Below, piece after piece: positions 33,089 to 63,310 of a stretch of DNA of 64,000 nt. Both the position numbers and the translations under genes were made by a program. Every line of letters starts with the position of its first letter. Position 1 is the first letter of the stretch. The notes below the pieces were generated by a model that searched no databases, was not told the DNA's origin, and worked only from the letters and a program-made list of their open reading frames with translations. Origin of the DNA: Firmicutes bacterium UBA3546 (lineage in GTDB: Bacteria; Bacillota; Clostridia; Tissierellales; Proteiniboraceae); assembly GCA_002376545.1 (NCBI GenBank), contig DFOH01000041.1, forward strand, positions 48,250 to 112,249, written 5' to 3'.

Positions 33089-33092
33089 TACA

Positions 33093-33425: not shown

Positions 33426-33454
33426 ATCTATCACCTCCAATTCTATATGTTATA

Positions 33455-34016: not shown

Positions 34017-34046
34017 AGAAACATCATAATTATTTTATCATAAAAA

Positions 34047-34133: not shown

Positions 34134-34242
34134 TCATCTTTCACGGCCTCCTTTCATTATTGGTAAACTCTACTAGATTAAGCTACCTTTTCATATTACC
34201 ACCATTTTTTACATAATGCAATACCTTTTTAGAAATTTTATT

Positions 34243-41699: not shown

Positions 41700-43100
41700 A
41701 CTAGTTTTGCTTTAACCAGCAGTTATTTTTACAAAACAGATTTTAATCTAATAGCATATTAATATTGAATTTCATTTTTGCTTCTACGATAGAAAATAGC
41801 CCATACAATTGATAAAGCCAAGGCTACAACTACTATTGTTAATGCTGTATTGTAACCCGCTGGATTGAATCTACCATCGGCTAGTGGTTCGTATAGGTCA
41901 ATAATCGCACCAATTCCTGATTGAATAACAGTAGACATAACGAATACTATCATATTATAAGTCGTCTGCACACGACCTGATAACTTTGCATCAAACATAG
42001 ATGAAAAAATTGGATATGTAAGTAATGAAAACGGTCCCAATATTACAAATATAGGCCATAATATATTACCATATTGAGGTAAGAGAATAATTAGCCCTAA
42101 AATTGCAGTATATATAGACATTGCAACAATTGTTATAGTAAATACTTTTGTACCAAAACGTGCTTTCAATACGTTAGCACATAATCCATTTATTAGATAG
42201 CCTACTGTAATGGCAAATGCACAAACAAACAGAAGATTTGGAACGGCATCTTTTGAGTAACCTGCAACATCACGATACCATGGTCCAATCCATAAAGAGT
42301 TCAGTGCTAGATAGACTGACTGACCCAATACAGCTACAGGAGCTAATCTCCAAAATCGTTTAGATATAGAGATATCTAATGTTCCTTTTAGCTGCTGTCC
42401 AATGCTTTCCCCTACATTTTTCTCGTCAGGATGACGTGGAGAAAAGTATAGCATAAACGCAACAAATAATGTAAGAAACCCTAATACAACGAACACACCT
42501 CTCCAGCTCATAAATCCTAATGCGGCATTGATTGGAGTAGTAGCAACCATTCCACCAACACCACCAATAAATGATAATAAACTATTGTAGATAGGTAACT
42601 TTTCCTTTGGAAGCCAATCCCCAAATGCCTTGTATGCAGCCATCATACAACCTGATACACCTAAACCCACTAAAGCCCTTCCAATAAACAAGAAGAATAT
42701 GTTTTGAGCTGATGCAAATACAAAACATCCAACAACCCCAAATATCATAAAACCTGCAAGTGTACGTCCAGAACCATATCTATCTAGGCATACTCCTAGC
42801 GGGATTTGCGCAAACGCGACACTTAAAAAATATGCACTTGTCATAATCCCAAGATCACTAGCACTCATACTAAATGTTTGAATGAATGTTGGTGATAAAA
42901 CACTATTAATTGTTCTCAAAAGAACTGACATAAAGAAAGCTAATGCAAAAGGAATAAATAATTTAAAAAAGAAGCTGACAGTTACCTCTTTTTTGTTGAG
43001 TGACACCTGAGCCATTGTGAAACCCCCTTAGCCTTTAATTTTGTTGAATCTATCAGGGAATCCGCTTACCTATTTGAAAGTTTCTTATATATATTTTCAT
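41700..43100. repeat. About 1.35-kb direct repeat, copy 1
   Basis: Covers the MFS gene plus about 60 bp of both flanks, and is about 90% identical in nucleotides to 45095-46490 (copy 2). Confidence 0.7.
41759..43015 (-). CDS. MFS transporter (copy 1)
   Basis: 418 aa, 12 TM, MFS family. About 88% identical in amino acids to the copy at 45154-46410. Confidence 0.75.
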   Translation of the reverse strand: MAQVSLNKKEVTVSFFFKLFIPFALAFFMSVLLRTINSVLSPTFIQTFSMSASDLGIMTSAYFLSVAFAQIPLGVCLDRYGSGRTLAGFMIFGVVGCFVFASAQNIFFLFIGRALVGLGVSGCMMAAYKAFGDWLPKEKLPIYNSLLSFIGGVGGMVATTPINAALGFMSWRGVFVVLGFLTLFVAFMLYFSPRHPDEKNVGESIGQQLKGTLDISISKRFWRLAPVAVLGQSVYLALNSLWIGPWYRDVAGYSKDAVPNLLFVCAFAITVGYLINGLCANVLKARFGTKVFTITIVAMSIYTAILGLIILLPQYGNILWPIFVILGPFSLLTYPIFSSMFDAKLSGRVQTTYNMIVFVMSTVIQSGIGAIIDLYEPLADGRFNPAGYNTALTIVVVALALSIVWAIFYRRSKNEIQY

Positions 43101-43699: not shown

Positions 43700-44950
43700 C
43701 TATGCTTGTAAAAAATCATATGCAGATAATGTATGTATCTGTGCAATTTTTACCATCTCATCAATAGAGACATGTTCGTTTGGTCCGCCTAAGCCGTATG
43801 GAGTTAACCCACAGTTTATACTTGGGACACCCTTTCTCAATCTATATATTCTAGCATCAGATGCACCTACACGGAATGTTACTACAACTTCCTCGCCAAG
43901 AACTTCTTCACTGCATGATTTAACAACTTTAAACAAAATATCATCTACATCAGACCAGTTTGCTTCGTATGAACGCATAACAGAATAAGATACATTATCT
44001 ATAGAGGATACTATTTCTTTAAGCTTGTCCTCTATCTGTTGTATGGTAACCCCAGCTGGAATTCTTATATCTGCCTCTGCCATTGCTGATGCAGGAACAA
44101 GATTTGGAGAAATTCCTCCTTTAATGGTGCCAAAGTTTACAGTTACTTTTTGCAAAATTTCCGTTTCACCTGGTCCTGCGCCTACCTCGGAAATTCTTGC
44201 ACCATCTAAAATTGCCCTTCTTACCTTTTCTGGAGCATTCACTTGTAATTTAGGAAGCTCTTCATTTATCATAGATATCGCCTTAATCAAGCTATTAATT
44301 GCACTGCTTCCTTTATGAAGATGTGCACCATGAGCTGATTTTCCAGTAGCTTCTAGCTTAATCCATAGTAGACCTTTTTGCCCAAATCGTAATGCATTAG
44401 GAGCACCTACGTCAGCACAAATCATTGCGTCTCCTGTAGTTTCTGGAACAGTAGCTAGTAAAAACTCTGTTCCTCTAGGTCCCATTGCTTCTTCATCTCC
44501 TGCAAGAGTAAGAATAATCTCACCATTCCATAAGTCTTTTCTTTCTGCTAATATTTTGGATGCAGTAATGAAACAAGCAATTCCACCTTTCATATCAGAA
44601 GAACCACGTCCATATATAAAATTATCCTTTACAATTCCAGACCAAGGGGATTCATCCCAGTCATCAGGATTTCCAACTGGGTAAGTATCTAGATGTCCAT
44701 TAAAGATTAATCTTTTACCTGGCTTGCCACTCTTTATTCTAGCAACAAGATTTCTTACAGGCTCTTCTTGTGTATAATAATTTAGTTCTATACCAGGAAT
44801 CTCCTTAAGAACATCATATACATATTCTGCAACCTCTATTGTGTTAGATGGCGGAGTTTCACTAGGAATCTGAACCATTTTGATACATAAATCTACCATG
44901 TTTTGTTTTTGCTTTAGAATTTCTTCGCATAATTCTTTTCTTAAGTCCAC
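43700..44950 (-). CDS. M20 family metallopeptidase/deacylase (ArgE/DapE-like)
   Basis: HLDTYP, GSSDMKGG and EEAMG motifs, 416 aa. Confidence 0.7.
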   Translation of the reverse strand: MDLRKELCEEILKQKQNMVDLCIKMVQIPSETPPSNTIEVAEYVYDVLKEIPGIELNYYTQEEPVRNLVARIKSGKPGKRLIFNGHLDTYPVGNPDDWDESPWSGIVKDNFIYGRGSSDMKGGIACFITASKILAERKDLWNGEIILTLAGDEEAMGPRGTEFLLATVPETTGDAMICADVGAPNALRFGQKGLLWIKLEATGKSAHGAHLHKGSSAINSLIKAISMINEELPKLQVNAPEKVRRAILDGARISEVGAGPGETEILQKVTVNFGTIKGGISPNLVPASAMAEADIRIPAGVTIQQIEDKLKEIVSSIDNVSYSVMRSYEANWSDVDDILFKVVKSCSEEVLGEEVVVTFRVGASDARIYRLRKGVPSINCGLTPYGLGGPNEHVSIDEMVKIAQIHTLSAYDFLQA

Positions 44951-45153: not shown

Positions 45154-46410
45154 TTAATATTGAATTTCATTTTTATTTCTACGATAGAAAATAGCCCATA
45201 CAATTGATAAAGCTAAAGATACAAATACTATTATTAACGCTGTTCTATAACCCATTGGATTAAATCTACCATCGGCTAGTGGTTCATATAGGTCAATAAT
45301 CGCACCAATTCCTGACTGAATAACAGTAGACATAATAAATACTAGCATATTATAAGTAGTCTGCACACGACCTGATAACTTTGCATCAAACATAGATGAG
45401 AAAATTGGGTATGTAAGTAGTGAAAACGGTCCCAATAGTACGAATGCAGGCCATAATATATTACCATATTGGGGTAAGAGAATAATTAGCCCTAAAATCG
45501 CAGTATATATGGACATTGCAACGATTGTCACAGAAAATACTTTTGTACCTAAACGTGCTTTCAATGCGTTAGCGCAAAATCCATTTATTAGATATCCTAC
45601 TGTAATGGCAAATGCACAGATAAATAGAAGATTTGGCACAGCATCTTTTGAGTAACCTGCAACATCGCGGTACCATGGCCCAATCCATAAAGAGTTCAAT
45701 GCTAGGTATACTGACTGACCCAATACGGCTACAGGAGCTAATCTCCAAAATCGTTTCGATATAGAGATATCCAATGTTCCTTTTAGCTGTTGTTTAATGC
45801 TTTCTCCTACATTTTTCTCGTTAGGATGACGTGGAGAAAAGTATAGCATAAACGCAACAAATAATGTAAGAAGACCTAATACAACGAACACTCCTCTCCA
45901 GCTCATAAATCCTAATGCAGCATTGATTGGAGTAGTAGCAACCATTCCACCAACACCACCAACAAATGATTCTAGGCTATTGTACATAGGTAGCTTTTCC
46001 TTTGGAAGCCAATCTCCAAATGCTTTATATGCAGCCATTAAACAACCCGATACACCTAAGCCAACTAAAGCCCTTCCAATAAACAAGAAAAATATGTTTT
46101 GAGCTGATGCAAACACTAGACATCCAATAACTGCAAATACCATAAAAATAGAAAGTGTACGTCCAGAACCATATCTATCTAGGCACACCCCTAATGGAAT
46201 CTGTGCAAATGCAAAACTTAAAAAATATGCACTTGTCATGATTCCAAGATCACTAGCACTCATATTAAATGTTTCAATAAATGTTGGTGACAAAACACTA
46301 TTAATTGTTCTCAGAAGACATGACATAAAGAAAGCTAATGCAAAAGGAATAAATAGTTTAAAAAAGAAGCTGACAGTTACCTCTTTTTTATTGAGTGTTG
46401 CTTGACTCAT
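45154..46410 (-). CDS. MFS transporter (copy 2)
   Basis: 418 aa, paralog of 41759-43015. Confidence 0.75.
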   Translation of the reverse strand: MSQATLNKKEVTVSFFFKLFIPFALAFFMSCLLRTINSVLSPTFIETFNMSASDLGIMTSAYFLSFAFAQIPLGVCLDRYGSGRTLSIFMVFAVIGCLVFASAQNIFFLFIGRALVGLGVSGCLMAAYKAFGDWLPKEKLPMYNSLESFVGGVGGMVATTPINAALGFMSWRGVFVVLGLLTLFVAFMLYFSPRHPNEKNVGESIKQQLKGTLDISISKRFWRLAPVAVLGQSVYLALNSLWIGPWYRDVAGYSKDAVPNLLFICAFAITVGYLINGFCANALKARLGTKVFSVTIVAMSIYTAILGLIILLPQYGNILWPAFVLLGPFSLLTYPIFSSMFDAKLSGRVQTTYNMLVFIMSTVIQSGIGAIIDLYEPLADGRFNPMGYRTALIIVFVSLALSIVWAIFYRRNKNEIQY

Positions 46411-48972: not shown

Positions 48973-49446
48973 TTAAAATTTACAATGCTCGTTTCTTATT
49001 GAGCTTACTTCATTTATTATATCATCAACATCTAGAACCATTTCCATCATACCAATTTGCTCATCATATACATCTACGTCAAATTCATCTTTAACTTCTG
49101 GCTCTACAACATGATATACTTTAAGTCCTAACTGGACTCCTGCTAATGGACCTGCAAAAGTTGGATCTCCTGCTGTAACTGTTTCAGCTGCTAAACCTGC
49201 AGCTTCACCTTCAGCAGCACCTAAAAGAACGATTATGTTCTCTGCACCGTGCTTCTCAGCTAAATCCTTAACTCTTTGTTGATTTTCTAGGTCCATAGCT
49301 CCTGCAGCCGTTCAGACAAAACACTCTGTAGATGCAAAAACTACTTCTGCGCTAGTTCCTTTAAGACATTCTTCTACCGCTGGAGCTGGTATACCGTCTC
49401 TATCGCCTATTATGATAACTTTTTTATCATCAAATAGTCTCATCAT
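48973..49446 (-). CDS. grdA: Glycine/betaine reductase selenoprotein A with in-frame UGA (Sec)
   Basis: Translation through TGA at 49312-49314 gives [59 protein letters not shown].... The track shows only the 107-aa portion after the UGA. Confidence 0.8.
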
Positions 49447-49619
49447 CACACTTCCTTTCTCAAGTTATATTATATTTGTGTTATTTAATACAGTTCAGAA
49501 AGAGATACGCTTCTCCTTCTGAATTAAGTCTTAAATTATCTTAATATTGAAGTTTTACCTTAAATATCGTTTATCAGTAGGTAAGAATCATCCTTGTCAC
49601 ATTTCTAGTTATCTAATGA

Positions 49620-50696
49620 TTAAAAAGCTTTATTTTTAATACTCTTAATTAGCATCAGCACTAATAATAATATACCTACATATCCATTAATTACGTAAAT
49701 AATATTAATTAATTTATCAAAAGGTACTTTTAATCCAATAAAAATCCCTACGACTGCTAAAACTATAGTAACTATTTTAAATTTACGGCTCTTCTCATCT
49801 GTAATTCTGGCCGAAGCAGTCCAAAGAAGTGGTACTGCTGTAGTATAAATTCCTGCTACAACTGTTATTGAAAACACTACAGCTATAGTTGGATGTATGT
49901 TGGCTGCTAATATTAATGATGGAATCATAGAGCCAGCAACTTGTTCAATGTTTGCCATAAGTCCTAAAGCTACAATTATAACAGCTATTGAAAAAGCTAT
50001 AGCGCCAAAAATTGCACCAAGAGCAGCTTCTTTTTTGCTATTTGCTGTTGCTCCCATAGAAGACACAAAAGATGCTAACCAAAGCATGCAGAAGCCAACA
50101 TAGGAACCTGCTGCAAACAACCAATTAGTCGATGCCTTCATTAAATTCAAAGTAGGTATAACCTCACTTGCTTTATTTAATCCTCCAGGATTTTTAATGA
50201 TAGCTGTCAACCCTAATAATATAGATAATACAACTATTGCTGGACCAATTTTCCCTATTACATCAACTATTTTACCTAGTCCAAAAATAACTGTTCCTCC
50301 TGCAAGTATACCCATGACTATACCACCAATAGAAACAGGTAACTCATATTGTTGATTTAGCGTAGCTCCAGCTCCTGCAATCATTACAATAAATGACATA
50401 TAAATAAATATCACCGAGAAATAGTCGTAAAACTTGCCTATGGTTTTACCACAATAATAGGTAAAAATATCACTACCTTTTGGAAACTTATGCTCCTGTC
50501 CTACTGTTATAAAGCTAACTCCAACATACAGAAACATAATAAACATAACTATGGCGCCTACAATACCCATATATCCATAAGATGCAAAATACTGCATTAT
50601 TTCTTGCCCTGTAGCAAATCCGGAACCTATTAAAAATGCTATGAATGCTCCTGCAAAAGAAATCACCTTTTTCATGCTTACTGTTTGATTACTCAT
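49620..50696 (-). CDS. Polytopic membrane protein, putative amino-acid permease (YkvI/APC-like)
   Basis: 358 aa, about 10-11 TM, embedded between grdB and grdA. Confidence 0.45.
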   Translation of the reverse strand: MSNQTVSMKKVISFAGAFIAFLIGSGFATGQEIMQYFASYGYMGIVGAIVMFIMFLYVGVSFITVGQEHKFPKGSDIFTYYCGKTIGKFYDYFSVIFIYMSFIVMIAGAGATLNQQYELPVSIGGIVMGILAGGTVIFGLGKIVDVIGKIGPAIVVLSILLGLTAIIKNPGGLNKASEVIPTLNLMKASTNWLFAAGSYVGFCMLWLASFVSSMGATANSKKEAALGAIFGAIAFSIAVIIVALGLMANIEQVAGSMIPSLILAANIHPTIAVVFSITVVAGIYTTAVPLLWTASARITDEKSRKFKIVTIVLAVVGIFIGLKVPFDKLINIIYVINGYVGILLLVLMLIKSIKNKAF

Positions 50697-50763
50697 AAGT
50701 ATCCACCCCTATCTAGAATAAGTCGAGCTGTTCCCATTCTGATTGCAATTTTTAGTTATTGCA

Positions 50764-50789
50764 TTTGAACCCCCTCTCGGGAGTTCAAA
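50764..50789 (-). promoter_or_regulatory. GC-rich hairpin with GAGA tetraloop in grdB-permease intergenic region
   Basis: Minus-strand TTTGAACTCCC-GAGA-GGGGGTTCAAA (11-bp stem, one mismatch), with no U-tract. Confidence 0.4.
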
Positions 50790-50808
50790 CGCAAGGATGC
50801 TCATGCTT

Positions 50809-52116
50809 CTATTCAAATTGAGTTACTTCAGTGATTTCAGTTGTCAAAGCACCTAATGCTTTCTTTACTAAATTACGTCTTAATGCCAGCTCATCCTCCG
50901 GTGTAAGGCTTGGATTTCCAACTGGGTATGGTATTGCTATAGTTGGTACTATTCTGTTTGCTCCTACTGATTCAGAAATTGTAGTAATTGTTGCCATATG
51001 AACTATTGGAATACCATATCTTTCAATTTCTTTTACCATCGTTGCACCGCAACGTGTACAGGTGCCTCAGGTTGATGTTAAAATAACTCCATCTACTCCG
51101 GCTTCTTTTAGTTCCTTTCCAATTTCTTTTCCAAACTTAACTGAATTTCCTACTGATGTACCTGTTCCAGTAGTTGTGTAGAAGTAATTAAATACTTTTC
51201 CTATGACTCCTTCTTTTTCGTATTGCTTTAATAAATCAAGTGGAGCTACTCTATCAGGCACTTCATTTGCATATACTGGGTCAAATCCACCATGGATAGT
51301 GCAATATTCGCCCTTAAGCTCATCTAGATTTTCTACATCATATTTTCCCCATTTTTGAGCACTAGCTGATTGTATTCTATCAGGGTTTCCTAATGGTACC
51401 ATACCACCACTAGTAACTAAAGCTATAGTTGCCTTACTTAGCTCCTTTATAGCAGGAGCTGGGTCTACCATGTCAAATACAGGCATTGGAAGCTCTGTTT
51501 CAAATTCCTGATTATTTAATCTTGCTAATAGCATTTCTACAGCTCTTTGAGAACCTCTTTTTTCTGTAAATACTGTCAGTCTCTTGCCTTGAGGTATATA
51601 GCCTTCTTCCTGTGGAAGTCCTAATTCTTCTTTATTGAGTACCTTCTTCACTATTTTTGCAATAGCATCTAATGCTTTGCGCATACTTGCTGCTGAATCA
51701 GATACACTTACAACTATTGCTTTATCCTTACAAACATCTACCCCCGGATTTTCAACATACATACCAGTTACTACAGGAATATTTAATTTATCTACAACTT
51801 CCTCTGCTATTTCTCCACATGCCATACCGTATCTACCTGCATTAAAGGCTGGCCCTGCAACTAATATATCTGGATTAACCTTTTTAACTACATTAAATAT
51901 ATAATCTAATGCTTCTTCCTTGTTTTCATTGAAATAATTGTCACCGCAAATAATTGTGCCTACAACTTTACCTACATCCTTCAACAATCCATTAAGCCCC
52001 ATTGCTGGCCCTACTGTTTCCTCTTTGTATTCAGGAGCCATACCTGCCTTGTCTTCTCCTCCTACTTGTCCAAAGAATTGATTAACATAATATAAAACTC
52101 TGTATTTATCTGTCAT
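50809..52116 (-). CDS. grdB: Glycine reductase component B selenoprotein (gamma subunit) with in-frame UGA (Sec)
   Basis: ...GVDGVILTST-U-GTCTRCGATMVKEIERYGIP.... The UGA is at 51067-51069. The track splits this gene into ORFs of 349 aa and 76 aa. Confidence 0.8.
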
Positions 52117-52140
52117 GTTTGTACCTCCTTTCAGTTACGA

Positions 52141-53436
52141 TTAGTATAATCTTGCTGTACAGTTGTGATAGCCTATTTCAGAAGTAGAACCAATAACTGC
52201 ATTTAATTCACACATTAATGTTCCATCTTCTAGCAAGGCTCCATCCCAGCCTCCTGCTAAAGTCGATATGGCTTCAGGATTTCCGATAACTCTATCAGCA
52301 GGTGGAAGAGTCACTACATGGCTTACATTGCCTCCCGATACTACTGCTATTGCTTCTTTAGCTGTATCTGCTAGTGGCTGAGACATTCCATCTCTGCCTG
52401 AACATTCATCAGTAATTAGTACAGTTTTTATTCCTGCATTTTCTAATCTCTTACAAATCATTAGTAAATCTGAGTCAGGATTTCCATATCCTTCTTCTGA
52501 TACTATAACACCGTCTGCACCTAACATTTTGCATAGCTTAGCTGTATAATCACAGGTTCTGAATTTACCTTCTAGTGTAGTAAGCTCTGGAGTCAATATT
52601 ACTCCTAAGAAATTTAACGTTTTCCCATGTTGTGAATATAAATCTAGTATAGCTGCATTATTTTGATGTTGATATGTTGTAATCTTATCACATGCTGCAA
52701 CACAGTTACCGCTGATTACAGCTCCATCTAGTTCTTCATTTGGATGTAATAGAGTTGGTAATATTTTTTGACTATTTACTCCATATATATATCCATCATG
52801 AAGTAATCCTTGAGAAATTAACATTTCTACATATAGTACCTTTGGTAAATTTGGATGTTTTGAAATCTCTTGTGCCATACTTCCTATTTCATAGGTTAAT
52901 ACTTCATCAGGCTCTACTTCTCTTCCTGCTTCACCTACAAGCTCAGTAGTTCTTAGCCCTGCTGCTCTAACTACAGCCTCATGAGTATGTGGAGCAAGCC
53001 CTTCAACTGGTGTAATATCTACAACTAAATTATAGGTTTTTGAAAATGGAGTCCATTTAGCTCCTTCATCCCACATGTCAATTACACCTTCTTGGAATCC
53101 CACTATATCACCTATAGTAACAATGGCTGCACCGTATAAAACATTTACTTTACCTTCTCCTAATTGTGCCATTTTTGATGTTACTCCAGGAAAACCATTA
53201 CCTTCACCTTCAATCTTAACTCTTGGCTCAATAACGTCTTTTACTGGAATTATTCTAACCTTCTCTCCAGGTCTTGCAATGTCTAATTTAATCTCTTTAA
53301 TTCTTTCATCTTCCATAAGCTTTTCAATTATGTCTTCTTTTCTTACTGTTAAAACACCATCTTTTACAGCAGTTTCATTTCCAAACTGAATGTCTTTAAT
53401 ATGAATTCTTCTAAGTTCTAATTTCAAAAAAGTCAC
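52141..53436 (-). CDS. grdE: Glycine reductase component B proprotein (alpha/beta subunits)
   Basis: 431-aa GrdE-like sequence directly upstream of grdB. Confidence 0.7.
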   Translation of the reverse strand: MTFLKLELRRIHIKDIQFGNETAVKDGVLTVRKEDIIEKLMEDERIKEIKLDIARPGEKVRIIPVKDVIEPRVKIEGEGNGFPGVTSKMAQLGEGKVNVLYGAAIVTIGDIVGFQEGVIDMWDEGAKWTPFSKTYNLVVDITPVEGLAPHTHEAVVRAAGLRTTELVGEAGREVEPDEVLTYEIGSMAQEISKHPNLPKVLYVEMLISQGLLHDGYIYGVNSQKILPTLLHPNEELDGAVISGNCVAACDKITTYQHQNNAAILDLYSQHGKTLNFLGVILTPELTTLEGKFRTCDYTAKLCKMLGADGVIVSEEGYGNPDSDLLMICKRLENAGIKTVLITDECSGRDGMSQPLADTAKEAIAVVSGGNVSHVVTLPPADRVIGNPEAISTLAGGWDGALLEDGTLMCELNAVIGSTSEIGYHNCTARLY

Positions 53437-53465
53437 CTCCAGATTATTTAAATAAAAAATATGAA

Positions 53466-53831
53466 TTATAATATCTGTGCTTCCTGTAATGCTGATTGTA
53501 AAAGTTTAAAGTCAATCATTGCATAGTCATCAGCATTTTTCTGGTCTGGATTTCTCACCTCCATATTTTTCTTATAGGTTGAAATGCTATTTTCTAATAT
53601 TTCTATATGAAAATCATTAATAGCCTTTTTCTTTTCTCCAACTATTACAGAGCGATATGGAGAATACAACATCCTTATACTAGCACCTAGTGGAGAACTA
53701 ATTAATTCATAACCATCATGTAATAAATCTCTTACTTTAACTAATACATCCTCATAAGTACCTTTAATGAAATAAATATTGTCTAAGTCTTCTTTTACCA
53801 TTGGATTATTGGTGACAATTATATTTTTCAA
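53466..53831 (-). CDS. grdX: GrdX-like small protein of glycine reductase operons
   Basis: 121 aa, first gene of the grd cluster. Confidence 0.5.
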   Translation of the reverse strand: MKNIIVTNNPMVKEDLDNIYFIKGTYEDVLVKVRDLLHDGYELISSPLGASIRMLYSPYRSVIVGEKKKAINDFHIEILENSISTYKKNMEVRNPDQKNADDYAMIDFKLLQSALQEAQIL

Positions 53832-55029: not shown

Positions 55030-56331
55030 TCATTCACCTCTCGAAATCACATCTTTTATTAATTCATCAATTAGCAGCTCTTGGTACCCTGCTCTTTTTT
55101 CTCGTTTAATAAATTGTGATAAATGAATCAATGAACTATCCCGCAGTCTATCTAATTTTCTTATTCTGTTTTCTTCAATATGCTCTTCTGACATTACTTT
55201 TTCATAATCATCTATAGAAAACCTCCACAGCTCCAAGCTTTCTCCATATCTTCTTTTAAGCTTATCTGCAATGATTAGACCCTCAGGGTCAAAATCTCCT
55301 GAATAATATATTTTAGCATTTTCTTTTACCAATAAATCTAGAAGAACTAATGAAGCCAGCTTTACATTACCATAGGTACAAATTAAGGCAGATTTTGTTT
55401 CATATGTTCTGTATAGAACTTCACTAAAAACTGTTGGATTCTCAAATACATATACTACACCCTTAGGCGCTATGGCTCTATTTAGTAAGCTAATATTCCA
55501 TAGAGATACTTGTAATGGCTCTCCCTGATTGTAGAAGCCTTGCCAGCCTTGATGAATCCTTTGTTCTGTATATGCTAAAAGACCACTTAATGTAGTATAG
55601 TTGGATATCTCATCTCTTATTAAGCCAGCCTTATATAATATTTCTGCTCTTTCCTCTGCATTTTCTGGATAATTTTCCTTTAGAAAATATACTATTCCAT
55701 ACATGAGCAGAATACCACTATCTGTATTATCATCAAATTCATGGGGATTTTTGCTGATTTGCGAGGAGAAAACAGCCAGTCTTTCCTTTCTATTTGTTAG
55801 GTATGGCAAGTTATCTAAAGCATTGGACACTAATATTAAGCCTTTTCTCAGCTTGTCTTTGTCAGAATCATATTTTCTTAATAATAGGTTGTAGGGATTA
55901 ATCCTATTTTCTAATATATCCTCAAGCCAGTTGTGTCCCCGCTCCCCCCTTATCTGATGTAAAACATCAGCATAAAACTGCCTCTTCTCTTCTTCATAAA
56001 TGCTTTGGCTTTCTTTTTTAGTTATTATATCCCTACTAAAATATTCACTTAGTATATCAACTAAATCTAATCCTTTAAATGGAGTATCCTCAAGGGCATT
56101 TTGAAATTTTTCAACTTTTATAGCTACTGAATCCTTATAATAGTTTTCCTTTAAGTATCCAGATATTGCTTCCTTTTCTGCTTGAGATAGCTTTTCAAGC
56201 TTTATTGTACCTCCAATTTTTCCTAAGGATATATATTTATCTCTGATTTTTAAGAGAACCCTGTTAAACCCAGGGTTACTCTTAAAATATTTACAGCATT
56301 GTTGCAGCAGCTTCTTCTCCATAAGCTTCAC
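55030..56331 (-). CDS. jetD: Wadjet JetD (TIGR02679/DUF2220-like, Toprim fold)
   Basis: VYVFENPTVF...YYSGDFDPEGL: a Toprim-like acidic Glu plus a DxD motif. It overlaps the jetC end. Confidence 0.7.
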   Translation of the reverse strand: MKLMEKKLLQQCCKYFKSNPGFNRVLLKIRDKYISLGKIGGTIKLEKLSQAEKEAISGYLKENYYKDSVAIKVEKFQNALEDTPFKGLDLVDILSEYFSRDIITKKESQSIYEEEKRQFYADVLHQIRGERGHNWLEDILENRINPYNLLLRKYDSDKDKLRKGLILVSNALDNLPYLTNRKERLAVFSSQISKNPHEFDDNTDSGILLMYGIVYFLKENYPENAEERAEILYKAGLIRDEISNYTTLSGLLAYTEQRIHQGWQGFYNQGEPLQVSLWNISLLNRAIAPKGVVYVFENPTVFSEVLYRTYETKSALICTYGNVKLASLVLLDLLVKENAKIYYSGDFDPEGLIIADKLKRRYGESLELWRFSIDDYEKVMSEEHIEENRIRKLDRLRDSSLIHLSQFIKREKRAGYQELLIDELIKDVISRGE

Positions 56332-59300
56332 CTTCGTTTAAAATTAATTCTTTAAATTGTCCATTCCATTTGTATCTAAGAACTGTAACAAAGTTTGCAT
56401 TATTTGGTCTAAGAAGCTCGCATATGGCAAGTGAAGGTACCGTGTCATAGTCTCCCCACAATATCTGGGAATTTATGATATAATTTAGTCCTAATTCATT
56501 TAGCAACCTAAACATATCTCTTATATTATTCTCATCCACACCTGCAAAAGCTTCATCTAAGGAAATTATTCTAGGGCAATCTTTTCTGCCCCCTTCGTAT
56601 TTTGAATATACAGCCGAAAATAAAGGAACATACATTGCCATGGCTTTTTCTCCGCCACTAAATTTATAAAATGCATTGTTTGTAAGCTCTTTTTTATTTT
56701 CGTTAGTTTTTTTATAAAACAGCCTGAATTCAAACCATTTTCTGTAATCTAGTACTTCCTTCATTATAGAGTGGAAGGTAGTACTCGTTTCTTTTTCTTC
56801 TATTTTTCTTCTAGCTTCTTCTATTTTAGATCTAAAATGAGCTGACAGCTTGTTAATTTCGTTTTCAGTTAATAGATTCCCATCCTTCTTTAATAGCTGA
56901 ACCAGTTCTTTAGTATCTAATTGTTCCTCTGTTTCTGCGCTCTTGCTTTTCCAGCTTAAACTAAATGATAGTCCACTTGATGTATTCATAGATTCCATGA
57001 GAGAATTCATCTTTTTTACCCATTCTTCACTGCTGTATATTCTTCCTCTTATTTTTTTACTAATATTTTTAGCCAGTATATCTTCAAATAGCTGCCTATC
57101 ACTTTCTCTGAGTAGCTTTTCATTTTCAGCTATTCCTTCTTTTATGTGTTCCAGCAAACTGTAAAAGCTCACATAGGTACCTCTAATTCTTCCCATAAGC
57201 TCTAATCTTTTATGCTTTAGATAAGCTTCCTTAATTTCATCCTCTAACTCTTCAATATTTTTCTCAAAAATATATTCTATTTTAAGATTATACTCTGCCA
57301 TAAACTGTCGGTTTTCATGGTATTTAGTTTGTAAATTTCCCATATAATCATCTCTTGATTTTCCTTGCTTTTCAAGATACTTCAATTCTCCATATATATT
57401 ATCAGCAGCTTTTTCAATATCTGCATTTTCCTCTGCTTTAAATACATACTGGAGCATATATTCTTCTTTAAAGCCTTCTTTTAAAATCTCGTTTAAGCTT
57501 TCATTAATGCAAATTTCTCTACCAGTGTTCTCCAGCTTTTCAGAAATAATTTTAAGCTCAGAAAACATACTAGTCTTTTTCTCTATGTTTTCTTTAATCA
57601 TTTTGGGTAAATTGTTTAATTCTTCTATACAATTACTAATTTCTTTTTCTATATCCTCAAAGCCTGATATTTGGAGCTGCTCATATAAGCTGTTTGTCTT
57701 TTCTTGGCTTTGCTTAAATCTCAGCTCTATCTTGGATAAATCATATCTTATTTCTTCTATGTCTCCATCTATTTCTTCTTTTCTATCTTCAGCATTTTTC
57801 TCTAAACTTACCACTTGTAAAAGCATTAGATGCTCTCTTTCTAAATCGCTTAAGACCTCCTTGTATGTGGTCGCATCCTCCTCAGCATCCATGAAGGCTT
57901 TAAGATTTTTCCCTATTTCCATATTATAAGTAAGGGAATGTACTTTTTGTCTCACTTCCTTAAGGATTTTGTACAGTCTATCTACTATTTCCTCTTTAAG
58001 CTCTACATCCTTTAACGAATTATCATATTCGAATTCTGATGTCTTCAACTCCCCTATAGCAGTTTCTAAATCTTTTTTATCTGGAAAAGAGCTGTATTCC
58101 TTGCTCAAAACTAATAATCTATCCTTTATTCCACTAATGCCTAATTGTAATTCTTTGATTCTTTCTTCAATTTCTTTCTTTTCCTCTGTAAGCCTTAGTA
58201 TAATTTCTTCTCTATAGGTTTTTCTAGCAGATGAGCCTATGAACTTAGGAGTGTAGGCTTTGCTTGTCTTTCCTTTTATCAATCCTATTCCATATTCCCC
58301 ATGCTCATTTATATAGGTGGTTTCTTCTTTTTCATCTACTAGTATAGTTCTTAGTACATCTTCAACTTCCTCTCTGCTTAGACCCTCTACCAAAGAATTT
58401 TCTGATTTTAACTTTAATGATAACTCATGGGTGAAAATTTTTGGCGATGCAAACAAATACTTATCCGCCATATCCTTATCCATTTCAAATACTCTTTTTC
58501 TGTATTTGTGAGGAATTATAAGAGCATCTAGTATTCCCATGTCTAACAGTGCTTCCTCGTATTTGCCCTTTTCTTCCTCTTTTAATAATTCTTCCTTAAA
58601 GTCTACAGCTAGATAAAAAGGCATAAATGGAATATTTTCCCCTGTTAATCTCTTACGATTTAGCAGTACCTTTTCTGTTCTCTCTGGTTCTGGATCTTTT
58701 TTGTTTTTCCAATCTAATATTTTCTGCTCTTTCTCATCTCTTTGTTCCTTATACTGTTTCTCTGCTGAGTTCAATTTATATAGTTTTTGATTAAGGTCAC
58801 CCTCAAATCTGTTATGCTCTGTTCTAATGTCTCCTATAATATCGTCAAAGGTGGTCTTTTCTCCATATAGATTTACCTTTCTCCTTACTTCTACTAGAAT
58901 CTCTTCAGAAGGCTTAAGCTCTTTGTTGTTTTTTTGCCATATATGCATGTTCTCTATGAATTCTTCTTTTATTTCAGAAAAAAGAAGACTTACCCTCTCT
59001 AGGTTTTTTCCCCTGTCTTCCTTTGCTTTTTTACTTCTCTCTAGCTCTATAAGTCCATTATCGTATTCAGCATTTTTGCTTCCTCTTCCTCTAAAGCTTT
59101 TCTTGCATTTGTTATTCTTTCGCTATAAGCTCTGACTTGAGACTTTACATATGAGAAATCATAGGGTTCATACATTTTTTTCAATATCTCATCTCTCATA
59201 AATACTTCTTCATGAAACTTAAATGCCTCTGCCAGCTCGTCCATTTCTCGTAACTTTTCTTTTATCTCATTTGCCTTGCATGTTTTTTCTTCTTCTCTTT

Positions 59301-60435
59301 TTTTAATTTCCTGGTAAAGCTCTCTTTCCTTATCTAGCTTTATATTTAGAGAATCATTTTTTTGATTTTTTTCTTTACTAAGCTCCTTTAAACCTTCTTC
59401 TAATTTAGCTAATTCTACCTTGATGTTGTAGCTATCATGCTTTTCCAGTTCTCTTTTCTTTTCTTCTAGGGTTTTTTGTCTTATTTCAAGGTCCGTTATT
59501 CTTTTATCTGCCTCATCATGTTGTTTCTGGAATTCTTCTTTTTTAGTGGTAAGTGCGTTTTTCTCCTTTTTAATATTTCTTAAAATTTCATTTGATTTAG
59601 TAAAATCCTTAGATTTTTCAAGCAATACAAATCTATTATATTGATCATAGGATTTTTCAAGCTGTTCTGCTGCTTTCAAGCTAGTTTTCAAGTCCTCAAG
59701 CTTCACCTTTATATTATCCATATTCTCTATGGCCTCTGACATTGGTCTTAAGTCCTCATCAGATAAAGGCTGTAAAGAATTCTCCATTATTTCATAGACT
59801 ACTGTTGGTTTAAAATCCTTTGAAAGCTTAGGGGTTCTGAGCTGAATAAGCAGCTTTATAAGCTCATCATAATCATCTATATTATCAAATCCAAATAAAT
59901 ATCTATTAACTAAGGACATATATTGCTTCTGGTCATCTGCTACTTCTCCGCCGTTTTCTATTCTATTTTTAAGTTCTTTTTTGCTTAAGGGTACTTTTCC
60001 CCCTACATTTTTATATAGGAAAAGCTCTTTTCCTATTCTCCTCCCGTCGCTTATGACAAAGCCCCAGGAATTTAAGCCTTTCCCTCTTTTAGCATTAAGT
60101 CCCATCCCAATAGTTATATACTTTTCACTGTCCTGCTTTTTAAATTCCATGTATATATAGCCTGTGCTTTCATCTTTTCCTGTGTCTTCTTCTCCTAGGA
60201 GATAGTTCTCCATTTTTCTAGCTCTAGAGCCAAAGGGGTCTAGTCTTTCTGGGCTTTTGTTTCCATCTAGTAAAAGAGGTATAAAGCTCTGCATTGTTAC
60301 AGATTTTCCTGAACCATTTGAGCCTCTTAGTAGTAGCTTTCCGTACAAAAAATCGAACTCTTCTTCATCGTAATACCAGAAGTTTATGAGTCCTGCTCTG
60401 TTCATCATCCATTTATCATTATACATCTTCTTCAC
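56291..60435 (-). pseudogene. jetC: Wadjet JetC SMC-like ATPase, interrupted by a +/-1 frameshift near the T5/A5 run at ~59073-59077
   Basis: The N-terminal ORF (59047-60435) has Walker A LLLRGSNGSGKSV plus coiled coil. The C-terminal ORF (56291-58948) has coiled coil, ABC signature FSGGEKA and Walker B IISLDEAFAGVD. The downstream frame stays open up to 59122, so both frames are open across 59047-59122. Confidence 0.7.
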
Positions 60436-61576
60436 TCTCCTTATGGGAGTCTAGGAAATCCTGCGGGTATTTTCCTATGATTTTTCCTGCCATGGGCATT
60501 ATTTTCACTTCATTAAAGTCTTCATTTATCTCTATCATGCTATAGTCCTTCATATATGACACAATATTTTCACAGAGCTTTTCTTCCTTCATTTCCCTAT
60601 ATTCCTTGCTCCAGCCAAAGGAGTTTTTCTCCTTTAGTTCTCTAGTTAAAGCATTAAAGCCTTGTATGGATATGCTTATGATGTCATTAGCTTCCTTATT
60701 TAGTTTTCCTTCCCTTAACTTCTCTAGGATTAATCCATTAGTTTGCAGCACAATATCACTGATGGTCTTGTTTTCTGGAAAGGCCTTTTTATAGTTTTTG
60801 TCTTCACTAAGCACCAGAAGTGCCCCATTCTTGTGAACATGAAGCTCTGAATCAAAATATTTGTCAACATCTGCTTGTATCATATTTCTATAATTTTTTA
60901 CATATAGATAATCCTGATCCTCCACTCCTTCGTTATATATGGCAGGAGACATTATAATCCTTCTATATACTCTATTTCTTCTAATTCTTCCTCTGTCTCT
61001 ATCTATATCAATCCATTCATCATTTTCAAAGTCTTCTAATGAGCTGTAGTCCATTATATTCCCTGTGAAATTTCTTACAAAATAAGTAGATATTCCTGTA
61101 TTTTCATACAGTACCTCTGAATCCTCCGTATTAGTAAAATCATATTCGTCCTCATCATTAATTTTTATAATTCCCATGTTTACTAAAAATTTCATTACAT
61201 TAATAAGGTATTTTCTATGTCTATATAATGTCCAGTCAACCTTTTCTTCTCCTGGAAATGTGGCTTCTATGAATTCCGTTACCTCTGATAGTAAAAATTG
61301 CTCTTCTCTTCCCTTATCTTCTAAAAACATAAGCATTAGGCACAGAAAGCTGTACTCCATCTTATCTTCAAAGTCCTCTATTCCCATCCAGCTTTCGCTT
61401 TTGCCAGGCATTTTTTCCAGCTTTACTAGATAGGGGTTTACTATAATCTGATATCCTAGCTTCTCATATAAAAATGGTCTTATTTCCTGTAATGAATCTC
61501 TTGTTTTATAATAAAGCTCTTTGTCATTTTCTTTTAATATCCAATAATTCTCTAAAAGTAGGTCTAGTTCTTTCAT
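60419..61576 (-). CDS. jetB: Wadjet JetB (TIGR02678/DUF4194-like)
   Basis: 385 aa in the position and order of TIGR02678, between jetA and jetC, overlapping both. Confidence 0.55.
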   Translation of the reverse strand: MKELDLLLENYWILKENDKELYYKTRDSLQEIRPFLYEKLGYQIIVNPYLVKLEKMPGKSESWMGIEDFEDKMEYSFLCLMLMFLEDKGREEQFLLSEVTEFIEATFPGEEKVDWTLYRHRKYLINVMKFLVNMGIIKINDEDEYDFTNTEDSEVLYENTGISTYFVRNFTGNIMDYSSLEDFENDEWIDIDRDRGRIRRNRVYRRIIMSPAIYNEGVEDQDYLYVKNYRNMIQADVDKYFDSELHVHKNGALLVLSEDKNYKKAFPENKTISDIVLQTNGLILEKLREGKLNKEANDIISISIQGFNALTRELKEKNSFGWSKEYREMKEEKLCENIVSYMKDYSMIEINEDFNEVKIMPMAGKIIGKYPQDFLDSHKESEEDV

Positions 61577-63063
61577 AAGGCATTCTCCTGAGTAAACTTA
61601 ATTATATAATGAGGCATATTTAAGCTTCCATCCTCACTTTCTAGAGTACAATACTTGTTTTTATCTGGCAGTAATATTCTGTACTTTCTTCCGTCCTCAG
61701 TTTTTCCTTCTCCATTAGATGAATTGTTGCCTTTACTAAGCCACCTTAGCAAGGTTATCCTTACGTGGGATTCTATTTTAGGCAGCTTTCCAAAATCAAT
61801 GACATTATCCTTTACATAGCTATCTATTATTTTCTTTTCCTCGTCTCTTTTTTTCACTATTTCCTCTAGAACCTTTCTCTTGTTTTCTCTATTATCAGCT
61901 ATGCCGCTTCTACCCCTTGTTTCTCTATAGGTTCTTACTCTGGGCTTTATGATTACTTCATGAGGCTTTTCCTCGTATACACTGCTGTTTATGCTTTCCG
62001 TTTCTCTTATGATGTTTCCTTTTATATGTCTAGTGTTAAATATTCCAAATACCACTGATGAAAGCTTATTGGCTTCATCTATACTATTAACCTTCAGGAA
62101 CATTTCACATAGCTTTTTGTATTCCTCTTTTCTATTGGCTGCACTGTTTCTAGCTTCAACTATTTGAGACGCATATCTGGTTATTTTCCTTATTATTTCA
62201 TTTGTATTGTCAAATAGCTTAGATACTTCGCTGTCTATGCCTTCTTCACCTAAAAACCACCTTTTCAGGCTTTCCCATCTTCCAAAAATGTTTTCTTTTA
62301 TATTTTCTAGGCTTACTTCATTATCTAGTCTTGGAATAGAGCTTTCATATTCAAAAACCTTTTCTAAGACTTTTATTTCCTCTTGACTGTCTAAGTTCTT
62401 TAGTATTGCCTCTATGGCATAGGCATTTTGCTGGAGTCCCTTGATAAAATTTCTTAGATAGTCAATAAACTTATCCTTGAATACTAGAAATTCTCTTGTT
62501 CTCATCATTTCTTCTGCCTTTAGGGAATTTAAATCTCTTATATAGTCTTGATAGTTTTGATTTAGCCTTCTAAAGTCTGCATATAATGAACTCCACCACA
62601 TTCCTATTATGCTCGAATCTTCATCTACTATATCTTTAAATCTTTTAAGCTCGTTTTTAAGTCTTTCAAGAAGAGATGGCTCTAGGGATGCACTTTCAAC
62701 TTTTAAGTTCTCAAGCCTTATGGTCATACGCTCTATTTCTACGCTATATTCAGATAACTGGTATCTAAACTGTTTGTTTTTAAATTCCTCTACTGTAGTT
62801 GCCTTGGAAGTATCCTGTGCCGGAATAAGGTTTCCCCATTCTGCTAATGTATCCAAATCCTGTTTGCACATGTCCATATTGTACTCTAAGAAATATTCAT
62901 GCTTTTTTAGCTCATTGAACACTTCTTCTTTGTACATCCAATGCTTCATTTTTTCATATTGTAAATAGAAAAACCTAAGGATTGTCCTATATCTCCAAGC
63001 ATTTTCAGCAGATAAATATTTAGTTTCTGTTATTTGCTTTAAGAGTCTGTCATCTATTTGCAT
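61573..63063 (-). CDS. jetA: Wadjet JetA (TIGR02677/DUF3375-like, kleisin-like)
   Basis: 496 aa, first gene of the four-gene cassette. Confidence 0.55.
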   Translation of the reverse strand: MQIDDRLLKQITETKYLSAENAWRYRTILRFFYLQYEKMKHWMYKEEVFNELKKHEYFLEYNMDMCKQDLDTLAEWGNLIPAQDTSKATTVEEFKNKQFRYQLSEYSVEIERMTIRLENLKVESASLEPSLLERLKNELKRFKDIVDEDSSIIGMWWSSLYADFRRLNQNYQDYIRDLNSLKAEEMMRTREFLVFKDKFIDYLRNFIKGLQQNAYAIEAILKNLDSQEEIKVLEKVFEYESSIPRLDNEVSLENIKENIFGRWESLKRWFLGEEGIDSEVSKLFDNTNEIIRKITRYASQIVEARNSAANRKEEYKKLCEMFLKVNSIDEANKLSSVVFGIFNTRHIKGNIIRETESINSSVYEEKPHEVIIKPRVRTYRETRGRSGIADNRENKRKVLEEIVKKRDEEKKIIDSYVKDNVIDFGKLPKIESHVRITLLRWLSKGNNSSNGEGKTEDGRKYRILLPDKNKYCTLESEDGSLNMPHYIIKFTQENAL

Positions 63064-63262
63064 TTTTCCACCTTTTTTTATGATTTTATACTAATTATAA
63101 CATATATTGAAAGTGTGGTGCCTAGTTTGTTAGTTGTTTTTATAAGCATTGACAATATATTAGAAAGCTAAAAGTAATAATTAAGAGAATAGCAAAAAAA
63201 TTAAATCGAAGGGACAGGCATATTAATTTTGGCTTCAATCTCGGAAGGATAATTATTACAAC

Positions 63263-63310
63263 AAACAGAAAGAACAAGAGGTTAAATCTTTCCTCTTGTT
63301 CTTTCTGTTT
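63263..63310 (-). terminator. Strong terminator after the GNAT gene
   Basis: 19-bp stem aaacagaaagaacaagagg...cctcttgttctttctgttt followed on the minus strand by TTTGTTGT. Confidence 0.7.

What the first reader, a model, noticed from the sequence alone, without database searches (positions are those of the whole stretch)
55030..63063. Wadjet-type (JetABCD / TIGR02677-02680) SMC-family defence cassette with jetC split by a homopolymer frameshift
Four overlapping minus-strand genes match the Wadjet/MksBEFG-like architecture. The gene order A-B-C-D and the sizes (496 / 385 / ~1350 / 433 aa) fit the TIGR02677-02680 cassette now known as Wadjet.
- The first gene is kleisin-like.
- The second is a mid-size partner.
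- The third is an SMC-like ATPase (Walker A at its N-terminus, signature and Walker B at its C-terminus, long coiled coils).
- The fourth is a Toprim protein with E...DxD.
- jetC is in two frames. The upstream frame ends at 59047 while the downstream frame is open from 59122, and a T5 run (59073-59077; A5 on the coding strand) sits in the overlap. This is most simply a +/-1 indel: a genuine inactivating mutation, a sequencing error, or slippage-based switching. If genuine, plasmid restriction by this system is off.
Basis: partly seen in the sequence, partly recalled or inferred. Interest (0 to 1): 0.6.

Follow-up and report, generated by a model that had tools for sequence, protein, structure and literature searches.

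The report
Type II Wadjet operon, frameshifted jetC
This is an ordinary four-gene anti-plasmid defence operon (type II Wadjet, jetABCD) whose motor gene jetC lacks one A in a run of A's, so the system is most likely switched off in this strain; both the system and this kind of lesion are already known.

Summary
Four overlapping minus-strand genes (55030-63063) are a type II Wadjet cassette. JetA, JetB and JetD score above the curated TIGR02677/02678/02679 cut-offs, and PADLOC's best models are JetA2, JetB2, JetC2 and JetD2. JetA, JetB and the repaired JetC match the solved Neobacillus vireti type II complex (PDB 9QE0/9QE1; JetC E=1e-242, end to end).

jetC is in two frames. Adding one A to the A5 run at 59073-59077 gives a single 1381-aa ORF. 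That ORF aligns without gaps through the junction to 30 orthologues. All 120 best homologues are single proteins of about 1350-1450 aa, and the closest orthologue has A6 at this site.

The frameshift is not an assembler artefact. The truncated product is on 5 contigs (NCBI plus Logan re-assemblies), and one Logan contig is 100% identical over 12.4 kb. About 45 other genes in the window are intact.

There is no conserved slippery site, no downstream RNA structure and no usable restart codon. Nor is there a second lesion or any rate acceleration.

Best reading: a recent, genuine 1-nt deletion that makes jetC a pseudogene and leaves Wadjet null. Frameshifted jetC is already a published example. 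Novelty and interest are low.

The parts
61573..63063 (-). jetA, the kleisin subunit (496 aa), intact
   Evidence: PF09660 DUF2397 2e-149 over profile 1-482/483. TIGR02677 scores 342 bits against a cut-off of 166. PADLOC JetA2 4.6e-209. PDB 9QE0_E (N. vireti JetA) 4.1e-86.
60419..61576 (-). jetB, the tandem-KITE subunit (385 aa), intact; overlaps jetA by 4 nt
   Evidence: PF09661 DUF2398 1.6e-101. TIGR02678 scores 201 bits against a cut-off of 125. PADLOC JetB2 1.1e-150. PDB 9QE0_D (nvJetB, 389 aa) 2.6e-81.
59047..60435 (-). jetC 5' fragment (462 aa from the GTG at 60435, 459 aa from the ATG at 60426). It holds the N-terminal half of the ATPase head with Walker A (60301-60324) and part of the ascending coiled coil. 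It ends after 8 out-of-frame codons at the TAG at 59047.
   Evidence: PADLOC JetC2 PDLC00551 7.2e-193, profile 2-452/1365. TIGR02680 scores 371.8 bits, below the 462.85 cut-off because the protein is truncated.
59073..59077 (-). Frameshift site: an A5 run on the coding strand (T5 on the + strand). One A is missing relative to the inferred A6.
   Evidence: Adding one A restores a 1381-aa ORF. The junction EEEAK|NAEYD aligns without gaps to 30 orthologues. The closest orthologue reads GTA AAA AAC (A6) at the same codons.
56291..59122 (-). jetC 3' part (943 open codons; the first start codon is the ATG at 58948, giving 885 aa). It holds the rest of the coiled coil, the hinge, the descending coiled coil and the C-terminal head half, with the signature motif (56642-56662) and Walker B (56546-56572).
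   Evidence: PADLOC JetC2 PDLC00551 8.3e-293, profile 442-1362/1365. PF13558 SbcC_Walker_B 7.5e-24. TIGR02680 scores 461.7 bits against a cut-off of 462.85.
55030..56331 (-). jetD, the Toprim nuclease subunit (433 aa; 430 aa from the ATG at 56322), intact; overlaps the jetC 3' end by 41 nt
   Evidence: PF11796 DUF3323 1.8e-46 and PF09664 DUF2399 8.3e-32. TIGR02679 scores 214 bits against a cut-off of 196. PADLOC JetD2 9.7e-157. The E of VFENP and the DxD of GDFDPEG are invariant in a 7-sequence alignment.
63064..63102 (-). Putative jetA promoter and ribosome-binding site: extended -10 TGnTATAAT at 63102-63094, GGTGG at 63072-63068, ATG at 63063
   Evidence: Read by eye from the sequence. The consensus scan was not above its shuffles (43 sites against 35.7 expected) and did not report this site, so it is an inference only.

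Best explanation
The locus is a chromosomal type II Wadjet (JetABCD-II) anti-plasmid operon in a Proteiniborus-related clostridial genome.

In an intact system, JetA (kleisin), JetB (tandem KITE) and a JetC dimer (SMC ATPase) form a loop-extruding motor. The motor recognises small closed-circular DNA and recruits the Toprim nuclease JetD to cleave it. This is established for the N. vireti orthologue and for type I systems; it is inferred here by homology.

In this strain one A has been lost from an A6 tract in the ascending coiled-coil region of jetC, at codon ~452 of 1381 (shown). Translation therefore ends 8 codons later. The resulting 462-aa fragment has Walker A but lacks the hinge, the descending arm, the signature motif and Walker B. 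It cannot dimerise or form an ATPase head (inferred from SMC architecture).

The first possible restart codon lies 46 residues after the last native residue (58 codons into the open downstream frame) and has no good Shine-Dalgarno sequence. More than 2.7 kb of untranslated mRNA precede jetD, so jetD expression is probably lowered as well (inferred).

Net effect: Wadjet is null and the strain should be permissive for small plasmids. The lesion is recent. It is the only defect in 8 kb, all catalytic motifs are intact, and the lineage shows no rate acceleration.
For: System identity:
- Searches give the Pfam, NCBIfam and PADLOC matches.
- Searches match PDB 9QE0/9QE1 (JetC E=1.2e-242 over residues 5-1368 against 3-1360; JetB 2.6e-81; JetA 4.1e-86).
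- One search shows the JetD E and DxD motifs.

Nature of the lesion:
- one added A gives a single ORF.
- gapless alignment through the junction.
- all 120 best homologues are single proteins of 1348-1454 aa.
- A6 in the closest orthologue.

The frameshift is real in the reads:
- the Logan assembly of SRR1749832 is 100% identical over 12,428 bp, including A5.
- the frameshift-specific 459-aa product is on 4-5 contigs from NCBI and Logan, and 2 samples share the Logan contig.
- about 45 other ORFs cover their Pfam profiles end to end. The only exceptions are the selenocysteine genes.
- the window holds 53 A/T runs of 7 or more.

The lesion is recent:
- 64 versus 56 lineage-specific substitutions, p=0.47.
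- There is no second stop or indel in 4.1 kb.

Mechanism and phenotype precedents from the literature:
- bioRxiv 10.1101/2025.03.10.642339 (from the abstract): nvJET-II shares substrate selection and DNA cleavage properties with type I.
- PMC12287153: deleting jetABCD raises conjugation into C. cellulovorans by about 1e5, and an EptABCD null mutation raises plasmid electroporation efficiency in M. smegmatis.
- PMC9252829: a frameshifted jetC is shown as a pseudogene example.
Against: - No raw reads could be inspected, and the sequencing platform of SRR1749832/SRR1749745 is unknown. A systematic homopolymer miscall shared by all assemblies of the same reads is not formally excluded.
- Some of the 5 contigs may derive from the same read sets, so they are independent of the assembler but not necessarily of the library.
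- No intact allele of this species is in the databases (best hit 84% identity), so the ancestral A6 is inferred from an orthologue.
- Loss of function is inferred from SMC architecture and was not measured. Low-level A5-to-A6 transcriptional or ribosomal slippage could give traces of full-length JetC.
Confidence: 0.85

Rival explanations
1. Sequencing or consensus error: the real genome has A6 and an intact jetC, and the A5 is a homopolymer miscall carried into every assembly made from the same reads.
For: The lesion is a single-base length change in a homopolymer, the classic error type. It is the only defect in an otherwise perfect operon, with no rate acceleration. These features fit an artefact as well as they fit a very recent mutation. 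The contigs carrying it may come from one sequencing project (runs SRR1749832 and SRR1749745 have neighbouring accessions).
Against: An independent assembler (Logan) reproduces A5 in a contig 100% identical over 12.4 kb. The truncated product is on 5 contigs and in 2 samples. None of about 45 other genes in the 64-kb window is frameshifted. That is despite 130 runs of 6, 47 of 7 and 6 of 8 A/T in the window, and 7 A7 runs inside jetC itself that are all in frame. An error-prone homopolymer platform would hit the longer runs first.
Confidence: 0.08
2. Regulated or stochastic switching: the A tract is a contingency locus or recoding site. Full-length JetC would be made by -1 ribosomal slippage on A_AAA_A, by transcriptional slippage, or by reversible A5/A6 phase variation, giving ON and OFF subpopulations for plasmid uptake.
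For: A -1 slip of tRNA-Lys on GCA AAA A would give exactly the orthologous sequence AKNAEY. Reversible loss of anti-plasmid immunity could be adaptive.
Against: The tract is only 5-6 nt. The site is not conserved: the second-closest orthologue reads AGG AAC with no run, and the closest has in-frame A6. All 120 best homologues are unsplit. The 96 nt around and downstream of the site fold no better than shuffles (z=-1.09). jetC contains 47 A/T runs of 5 or more simply because it is 43% A and Lys-rich, so a hit in one of them is expected from random slippage. All assemblies show the same length.
Confidence: 0.04
3. Functional two-piece SMC: the 462-aa N fragment and an 885-aa C fragment are both made and reassemble through the antiparallel coiled coil into an active JetC.
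For: Both fragments keep long open frames and intact motifs. PADLOC contains a 390-aa JetC2 model (PDLC00554) that matches the N fragment at 1.4e-134. This hints that N-terminal JetC2 pieces recur in genomes.
Against: The first start codon in the downstream frame is the ATG at 58948, 58 codons into that frame. Residues ~453-498 of the coiled coil would be missing, which would break the arm register. No Shine-Dalgarno-like sequence precedes that ATG (GAAUUCAUAGAGAAC AUG). No orthologue is split here. The N fragment ends in 8 non-native residues.
Confidence: 0.03

Closest known systems
Neobacillus vireti LMG 21834 type II Wadjet (nvJET-II; PDB 9QE0/9QE1; bioRxiv 10.1101/2025.03.10.642339)
   Same: The four-gene architecture and subunit sizes match: JetA 496 vs 500 aa, JetB 385 vs 389 aa (tandem KITE), repaired JetC 1381 vs 1371 aa. 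Sequence matches run end to end (JetC E=1.2e-242, JetB 2.6e-81, JetA 4.1e-86). The expected mechanism is the same: SMC loop extrusion on circular DNA followed by JetD cleavage.
   Different: Here jetC is interrupted by a 1-nt deletion at codon ~452, so no full-length SMC subunit is encoded. The host is a Proteiniborus-like clostridium rather than a Bacillaceae member. Activity was not tested here.
Clostridium cellulovorans 743B jetABCD (PMC12287153)
   Same: It is a native chromosomal Wadjet in a clostridial host. [quoted passage not shown] That is the phenotype predicted for the frameshift here.
   Different: Loss there was by deletion of the whole cluster, here by a point frameshift in jetC. 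Similarity between the two systems was not measured here.
Mycobacterium smegmatis EptABCD (Panas et al. 2014, as cited in PMC12287153) and the frameshifted jetC shown in the PADLOC paper (PMC9252829, Fig. 3G/H legend)
   Same: These are precedents for Wadjet-family systems knocked out by a mutation. [quoted passage not shown] The PADLOC paper shows a RefSeq jetC frameshift pseudogene.
   Different: The PADLOC example is a type I system; the Ept subtype was not checked here. This case is type II.
Closest orthologous cassettes in public data (P0001/L006, Logan SRR29457794; P0002/L007, Logan SRR22941226)
   Same: JetC is 84% and 82% identical and JetD 77% and 73%. The jetA-B-C-D order and overlaps are the same. 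L006 has A6 at the homologous site.
   Different: Both have a single uninterrupted jetC (1371 and 1378 aa). Their flanking genes differ (TetR, glycosyltransferase and FMN reductase, against GNAT, GntR and the grd operon here). So the cassette sits in different genomic contexts.

Membership tests
Wadjet type II (JetABCD-II; TIGR02677-TIGR02680 cassette) | Four co-directional, tightly packed genes in the order jetA-jetB-jetC-jetD | tested here: met
   all genes are on the minus strand, with overlaps of 4, 17 and 41 nt. The same order is seen in L006 and L007.
Wadjet type II (JetABCD-II; TIGR02677-TIGR02680 cassette) | JetA kleisin (DUF2397 / TIGR02677) above the curated cut-off | tested here: met
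   342.2 bits against a cut-off of 165.85. PF09660 2e-149. Best PADLOC model is JetA2. 9QE0_E 4.1e-86.
Wadjet type II (JetABCD-II; TIGR02677-TIGR02680 cassette) | Enlarged (~385 aa) tandem-KITE JetB (DUF2398 / TIGR02678), the feature that separates type II from type I | tested here: met
   385 aa. 200.9 bits against a cut-off of 124.65. JetB2 1.1e-150. Matches nvJetB residues 16-384 of 389. The tandem-KITE nature is taken from bioRxiv 10.1101/2025.03.10.642339.
Wadjet type II (JetABCD-II; TIGR02677-TIGR02680 cassette) | JetC SMC ATPase sequence (TIGR02680, ~1370 aa) with Walker A, signature motif and Walker B | tested here: met
   The two fragments tile PADLOC JetC2 profile positions 2-452 and 442-1362 of 1365. 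The repaired protein aligns over residues 5-1368 to nvJetC 3-1360. The motifs are present.
Wadjet type II (JetABCD-II; TIGR02677-TIGR02680 cassette) | JetC encoded as one intact polypeptide, needed for a functional system | tested here: not met
   Frameshift at 59073-59077. Each fragment falls below the TIGR02680 cut-off (371.8 and 461.7 bits against 462.85). All 120 best homologues are single proteins.
Wadjet type II (JetABCD-II; TIGR02677-TIGR02680 cassette) | JetD with a DUF3323 N-terminal domain and a Toprim-like DUF2399 C-terminal domain carrying the catalytic E and DxD (TIGR02679) | tested here: met
   214.4 bits against a cut-off of 196. PF11796 plus PF09664. JetD2 9.7e-157. E (VFENP) and DFD (GDFDPEG) are invariant in 7 sequences. 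There was no PDB sequence match.
Wadjet type II (JetABCD-II; TIGR02677-TIGR02680 cassette) | ATP-dependent cleavage of small circular DNA, or plasmid restriction in vivo | not testable with these tools
   This needs a transformation or conjugation assay, or biochemistry. The prediction is that it is absent in this strain.
Programmed -1 ribosomal frameshift / transcriptional slippage gene | A slippery site and a two-frame organisation conserved among orthologues | tested here: not met
   Orthologues are single-frame. L007 has no homopolymer at the site and L006 has in-frame A6.
Programmed -1 ribosomal frameshift / transcriptional slippage gene | A stimulatory RNA structure downstream of the slip site | tested here: not met
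   MFE -8.8 kcal/mol, z=-1.09 against 200 shuffles.
Phase-variable contingency locus | A long simple-sequence tract whose length varies among reads, isolates or assemblies | tested here: inconclusive
   The tract is only A5. All assemblies found carry the same length. Read-level heterogeneity could not be examined.

The most novel reading that the evidence does not exclude
The A5/A6 tract in jetC would be a reversible ON/OFF switch (or a low-efficiency -1 recoding site). It would let a subpopulation of this clostridium transiently drop SMC-based anti-plasmid immunity and acquire plasmids. That would be phase-variable Wadjet.
Probability: 0.04. Interest if true: 0.55.

Novelty: new member of a known kind. 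Interest (0 to 1): 0.15.

Why it matters
The practical value is modest. If the frameshift is genuine, this Proteiniborus-like strain is a natural Wadjet-null. It should accept small plasmids far better than relatives with intact jetABCD; deleting jetABCD in C. cellulovorans raised conjugation by about 1e5 (PMC12287153). That is useful for anyone wanting to make the strain genetically tractable.

The case is also a reminder for defence-system censuses. A jetABCD hit can be non-functional, and standard pipelines will either miss it or over-count it (PMC9252829).

It does not open a new biological question. The system type, its structure, its mechanism and its inactivation by mutation are all already described.

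Tried and rejected
- **Exact look-up of the 462-aa (GTG-start) N fragment and the 433-aa JetD.** Neither is on record, because gene callers used the ATG starts. The 459-aa and 430-aa versions were found.
- **Genome-contig scan with a junction-spanning JetC segment.** It returned only ~30% identical relatives (Clostridiaceae MAG, Bacillus, Siminovitchia, Desulfitispora). The source species is not among the GTDB representatives that were reached. These loci served only as JetD outgroups.
- **Final homologue search with a 200-aa junction-spanning query.** The aim was to find short intact or truncated fragments from the independent run ERR12068952. Nothing scored, probably because of coiled-coil composition filtering, so the jetC state in that run remains unknown.
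- **Promoter/terminator consensus scan.** It was not above its shuffles and is uninformative.
- **PDB sequence search with JetD.** No hit, so the Toprim residues were checked by orthologue alignment instead.
- **Rejected: an IS or other insertion as the cause of the split.** The two frames abut and align without gaps to orthologues.
- **Rejected: an old pseudogene.** There is no second lesion and no rate acceleration.
- **Rejected: the antisense ORF 58827-59135(+) as a real gene.** It lies wholly inside jetC coding sequence and has no support.
- **Side check of the ORF-poor 1.3 kb at 32913-34242.** Rfam and self-BLAST found nothing.
Full report
**1. Observation**

The ORF list shows five abutting minus-strand ORFs:

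| Coordinates | Length |
|---|---|
| 61573-63063 | 496 aa |
| 60419-61576 | 385 aa |
| 59047-60435 | 462 aa |
| 56291-58948 | 885 aa from the first ATG |
| 55030-56331 | 433 aa |

- Three-frame translation of 58850-59200 shows that the upstream jetC frame ends ...EEEEAKMLNTIMDL* at 59047.
- The downstream frame is open from 59122 and reads ...GSKNAEYDNGLIELERSKK....
- The overlap contains just two homopolymer runs of 4 or more: A4 at 59098-59101 and A5 at 59073-59077.

**2. What the genes are**

- Pfam, NCBIfam and PADLOC agree. They give DUF2397/TIGR02677/JetA2, DUF2398/TIGR02678/JetB2, TIGR02680/JetC2 in two pieces, and DUF3323+DUF2399/TIGR02679/JetD2.
- The two JetC pieces tile PADLOC profile positions 2-452 and 442-1362 of 1365.
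- In every case the best PADLOC models are the type II ones.
- The PDB sequence search ties the locus to the one structurally solved type II system, N. vireti nvJetABC (9QE0/9QE1). The repaired JetC scores E=1.2e-242 over residues 5-1368 against 3-1360. JetB scores 2.6e-81 and JetA 4.1e-86.
- The 385-aa JetB corresponds to the tandem-KITE subunit that distinguishes type II (bioRxiv 10.1101/2025.03.10.642339).
- JetD has no solved close relative. In an alignment with six orthologues, the Toprim glutamate (VFENP) and the DxD (GDFDPEG) are invariant.
- In the repaired JetC, Walker A (residues 38-45), the signature motif (1259-1265) and Walker B (1289-1297) are intact.

**3. The lesion**

- Inserting one A into the A5 run yields one 1381-aa ORF with no internal stop.
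- That protein aligns without a gap through the junction to the 30 closest homologues: ARKALEEEEAK|NAEYDNGLIELERSKK against P0001 ARKALEEEEVK NSEYDNGLKELERSKK.
- The upstream frame agrees with orthologues up to the Lys, and the downstream frame agrees from the same Lys onward. The indel must therefore lie inside the A run.
- At the DNA level, the closest orthologue (84% identity, L006) reads GTA AAA AAC, an in-frame A6. The next (82%, L007) reads AGG AAC with no run.
- All 120 best homologues are single polypeptides of 1348-1454 aa. The split is not native to the family.

**4. Artefact or real?**

- The JetA protein is on 4 contigs from NCBI and Logan. The Logan re-assembly of run SRR1749832 (L005) is 100% identical to the window over 12,428 bp, including A5.
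- The 459-aa truncated product owes its C-terminus to the frameshift. It is on 4-5 contigs, and the Logan contig is shared by two samples.
- Pfam scans of about 45 other ORFs in the window show end-to-end profile coverage. The only apparent truncations are the selenoprotein genes grdA and grdB, which are explained by in-frame UGA and a SECIS element.
- The window has 130 A/T runs of 6, 47 of 7 and 6 of 8. jetC alone has 12 of 6 and 7 of 7, all in frame. A homopolymer-error-prone data set would have broken several of these.
- I therefore rate assembly or sequencing error at about 0.08. Only read pile-ups can exclude it.

**5. Age and consequences**

- There is no second stop or indel in 4.1 kb of jetC, and jetA, jetB and jetD are full length.
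- A Tajima relative-rate test gives 64 lineage-specific substitutions here against 56 in P0001 (p=0.47), with no difference between the N and C parts. The lesion is therefore recent.
- The site lies in the ascending coiled-coil helix, before the hinge region (around residue 600, by alignment to nvJetC).
- The N fragment lacks the hinge, the descending helix and the C-terminal head half.
- The first start codon in the downstream frame is 58 codons in, and GAAUUCAUAGAGAAC precedes it, with no Shine-Dalgarno sequence.
- Inference: there is no functional SMC subunit, jetD probably suffers polarity, and Wadjet is off.

**6. Rival readings**

- *Recoding or phase variation.* A -1 slip on A_AAA_A would give the orthologous sequence. 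However, the site is not conserved, the tract is short, and there is no downstream structure (z=-1.09). The gene is 43% A with 47 runs of 5 or more, so a random slippage hit is expected.
- *Functional split SMC.* This is disfavoured by the missing ~46 coiled-coil residues, the lack of a restart signal and the absence of split orthologues.
- PADLOC's 390-aa JetC2 model (PDLC00554), which matches the N fragment, is a loose end. It may simply reflect recurrent truncated annotations.

**7. Comparison with what is known**

- Type II Wadjet has been reconstituted and solved. Per the paper's abstract, it shares substrate selection and DNA cleavage properties with type I.
- In C. cellulovorans, deleting the native jetABCD raised conjugation by about 1e5. 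Across Bacillota, jetABCD and plasmids under 40 kb are almost mutually exclusive (PMC12287153).
- An EptABCD null mutation in M. smegmatis increases plasmid electroporation efficiency (Panas 2014, cited).
- The PADLOC paper uses a frameshifted jetC as its example of a defence pseudogene.
- This locus is thus a new instance (at most 84% identical to anything in the databases) of a well-characterised kind, carrying a well-known kind of lesion.

**8. Host and context**

- The LysA encoded at 4527-5825 is 81% identical to Proteiniborus sp. and 75% to P. ethanoligenes. The host is therefore a Proteiniborus-related clostridium with ~33% GC.
- The cassette lies between a GNAT gene, which has a strong hairpin terminator at 63266-63307 (read by eye), and a GntR/FCD regulator followed by the glycine-reductase operon.
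- Orthologous cassettes sit in unrelated contexts, as expected for a mobile defence module.

**Verdict**

The most likely mechanism is a genuine, recent 1-nt deletion that makes Wadjet null (confidence 0.85). Novelty is low and interest is 0.15.

Noticed in passing
window 48973-53831 (-): This is a glycine-reductase operon (grdX, grdE, grdB, a 358-aa membrane protein with no Pfam hit, grdA) with two in-frame selenocysteine UGA codons. In grdB the UGA is at 51067-51069 (STUGTCTRCG), followed by an Rfam SECIS_4 element at 51029-51066 (64.8 bits). In grdA the UGA is at about 49312-49314 (CFVUTAAGAMD). These are the only other apparently truncated ORFs in the window, and they are explained by recoding.
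   Followed up: partly
window 32913-34242: A 1.3-kb stretch has no ORF of 60 aa or more on either strand. It lies upstream of a 1030-aa protein that has only an N-terminal GNAT domain (29820-32912). There is no Rfam match at gathering threshold and no significant internal repeat. It remains unexplained.
   Followed up: partly
window 41759-43015 and 45154-46410 (-): Two 418-aa MFS transporter paralogues, 91% identical over their full length, flank an M20 peptidase gene (43700-44950). This looks like a recent local duplication.
   Followed up: partly
PADLOC model PDLC00554, against window 59047-60435: PADLOC-DB holds a 390-aa 'JetC2' model that matches only the N-terminal head and first coiled-coil part (1.4e-134, profile 3-386/390). 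This suggests that truncated or split JetC2 N-terminal ORFs recur in genome annotations. How often type II jetC is broken was not surveyed.
   Followed up: no
L009 (Logan ERR12068952, 2849 bp) = window 3665-6513; L008 (SRR1749745) = window 2527-7825: DNA 100% identical to the window appears in a later, unrelated-looking run (ERR12068952, short contigs) and in a second run with a neighbouring accession (SRR1749745). ERR12068952 could give an independent read-out of the jetC A tract, but no contig covering jetC was retrievable.
   Followed up: partly
L005 392-676, about 320-600 bp beyond window position 64000 (upstream of the GNAT gene): A 94-aa ORF with a faint Mor (PF08765) hit lies just outside the window, next to the Wadjet cassette. 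It may be a remnant of a mobile element or regulator. It was not examined.
   Followed up: no
window 58827-59135 (+): A 102-aa antisense ORF spans the frameshift site. It lies wholly inside jetC coding sequence and is probably spurious.
   Followed up: no
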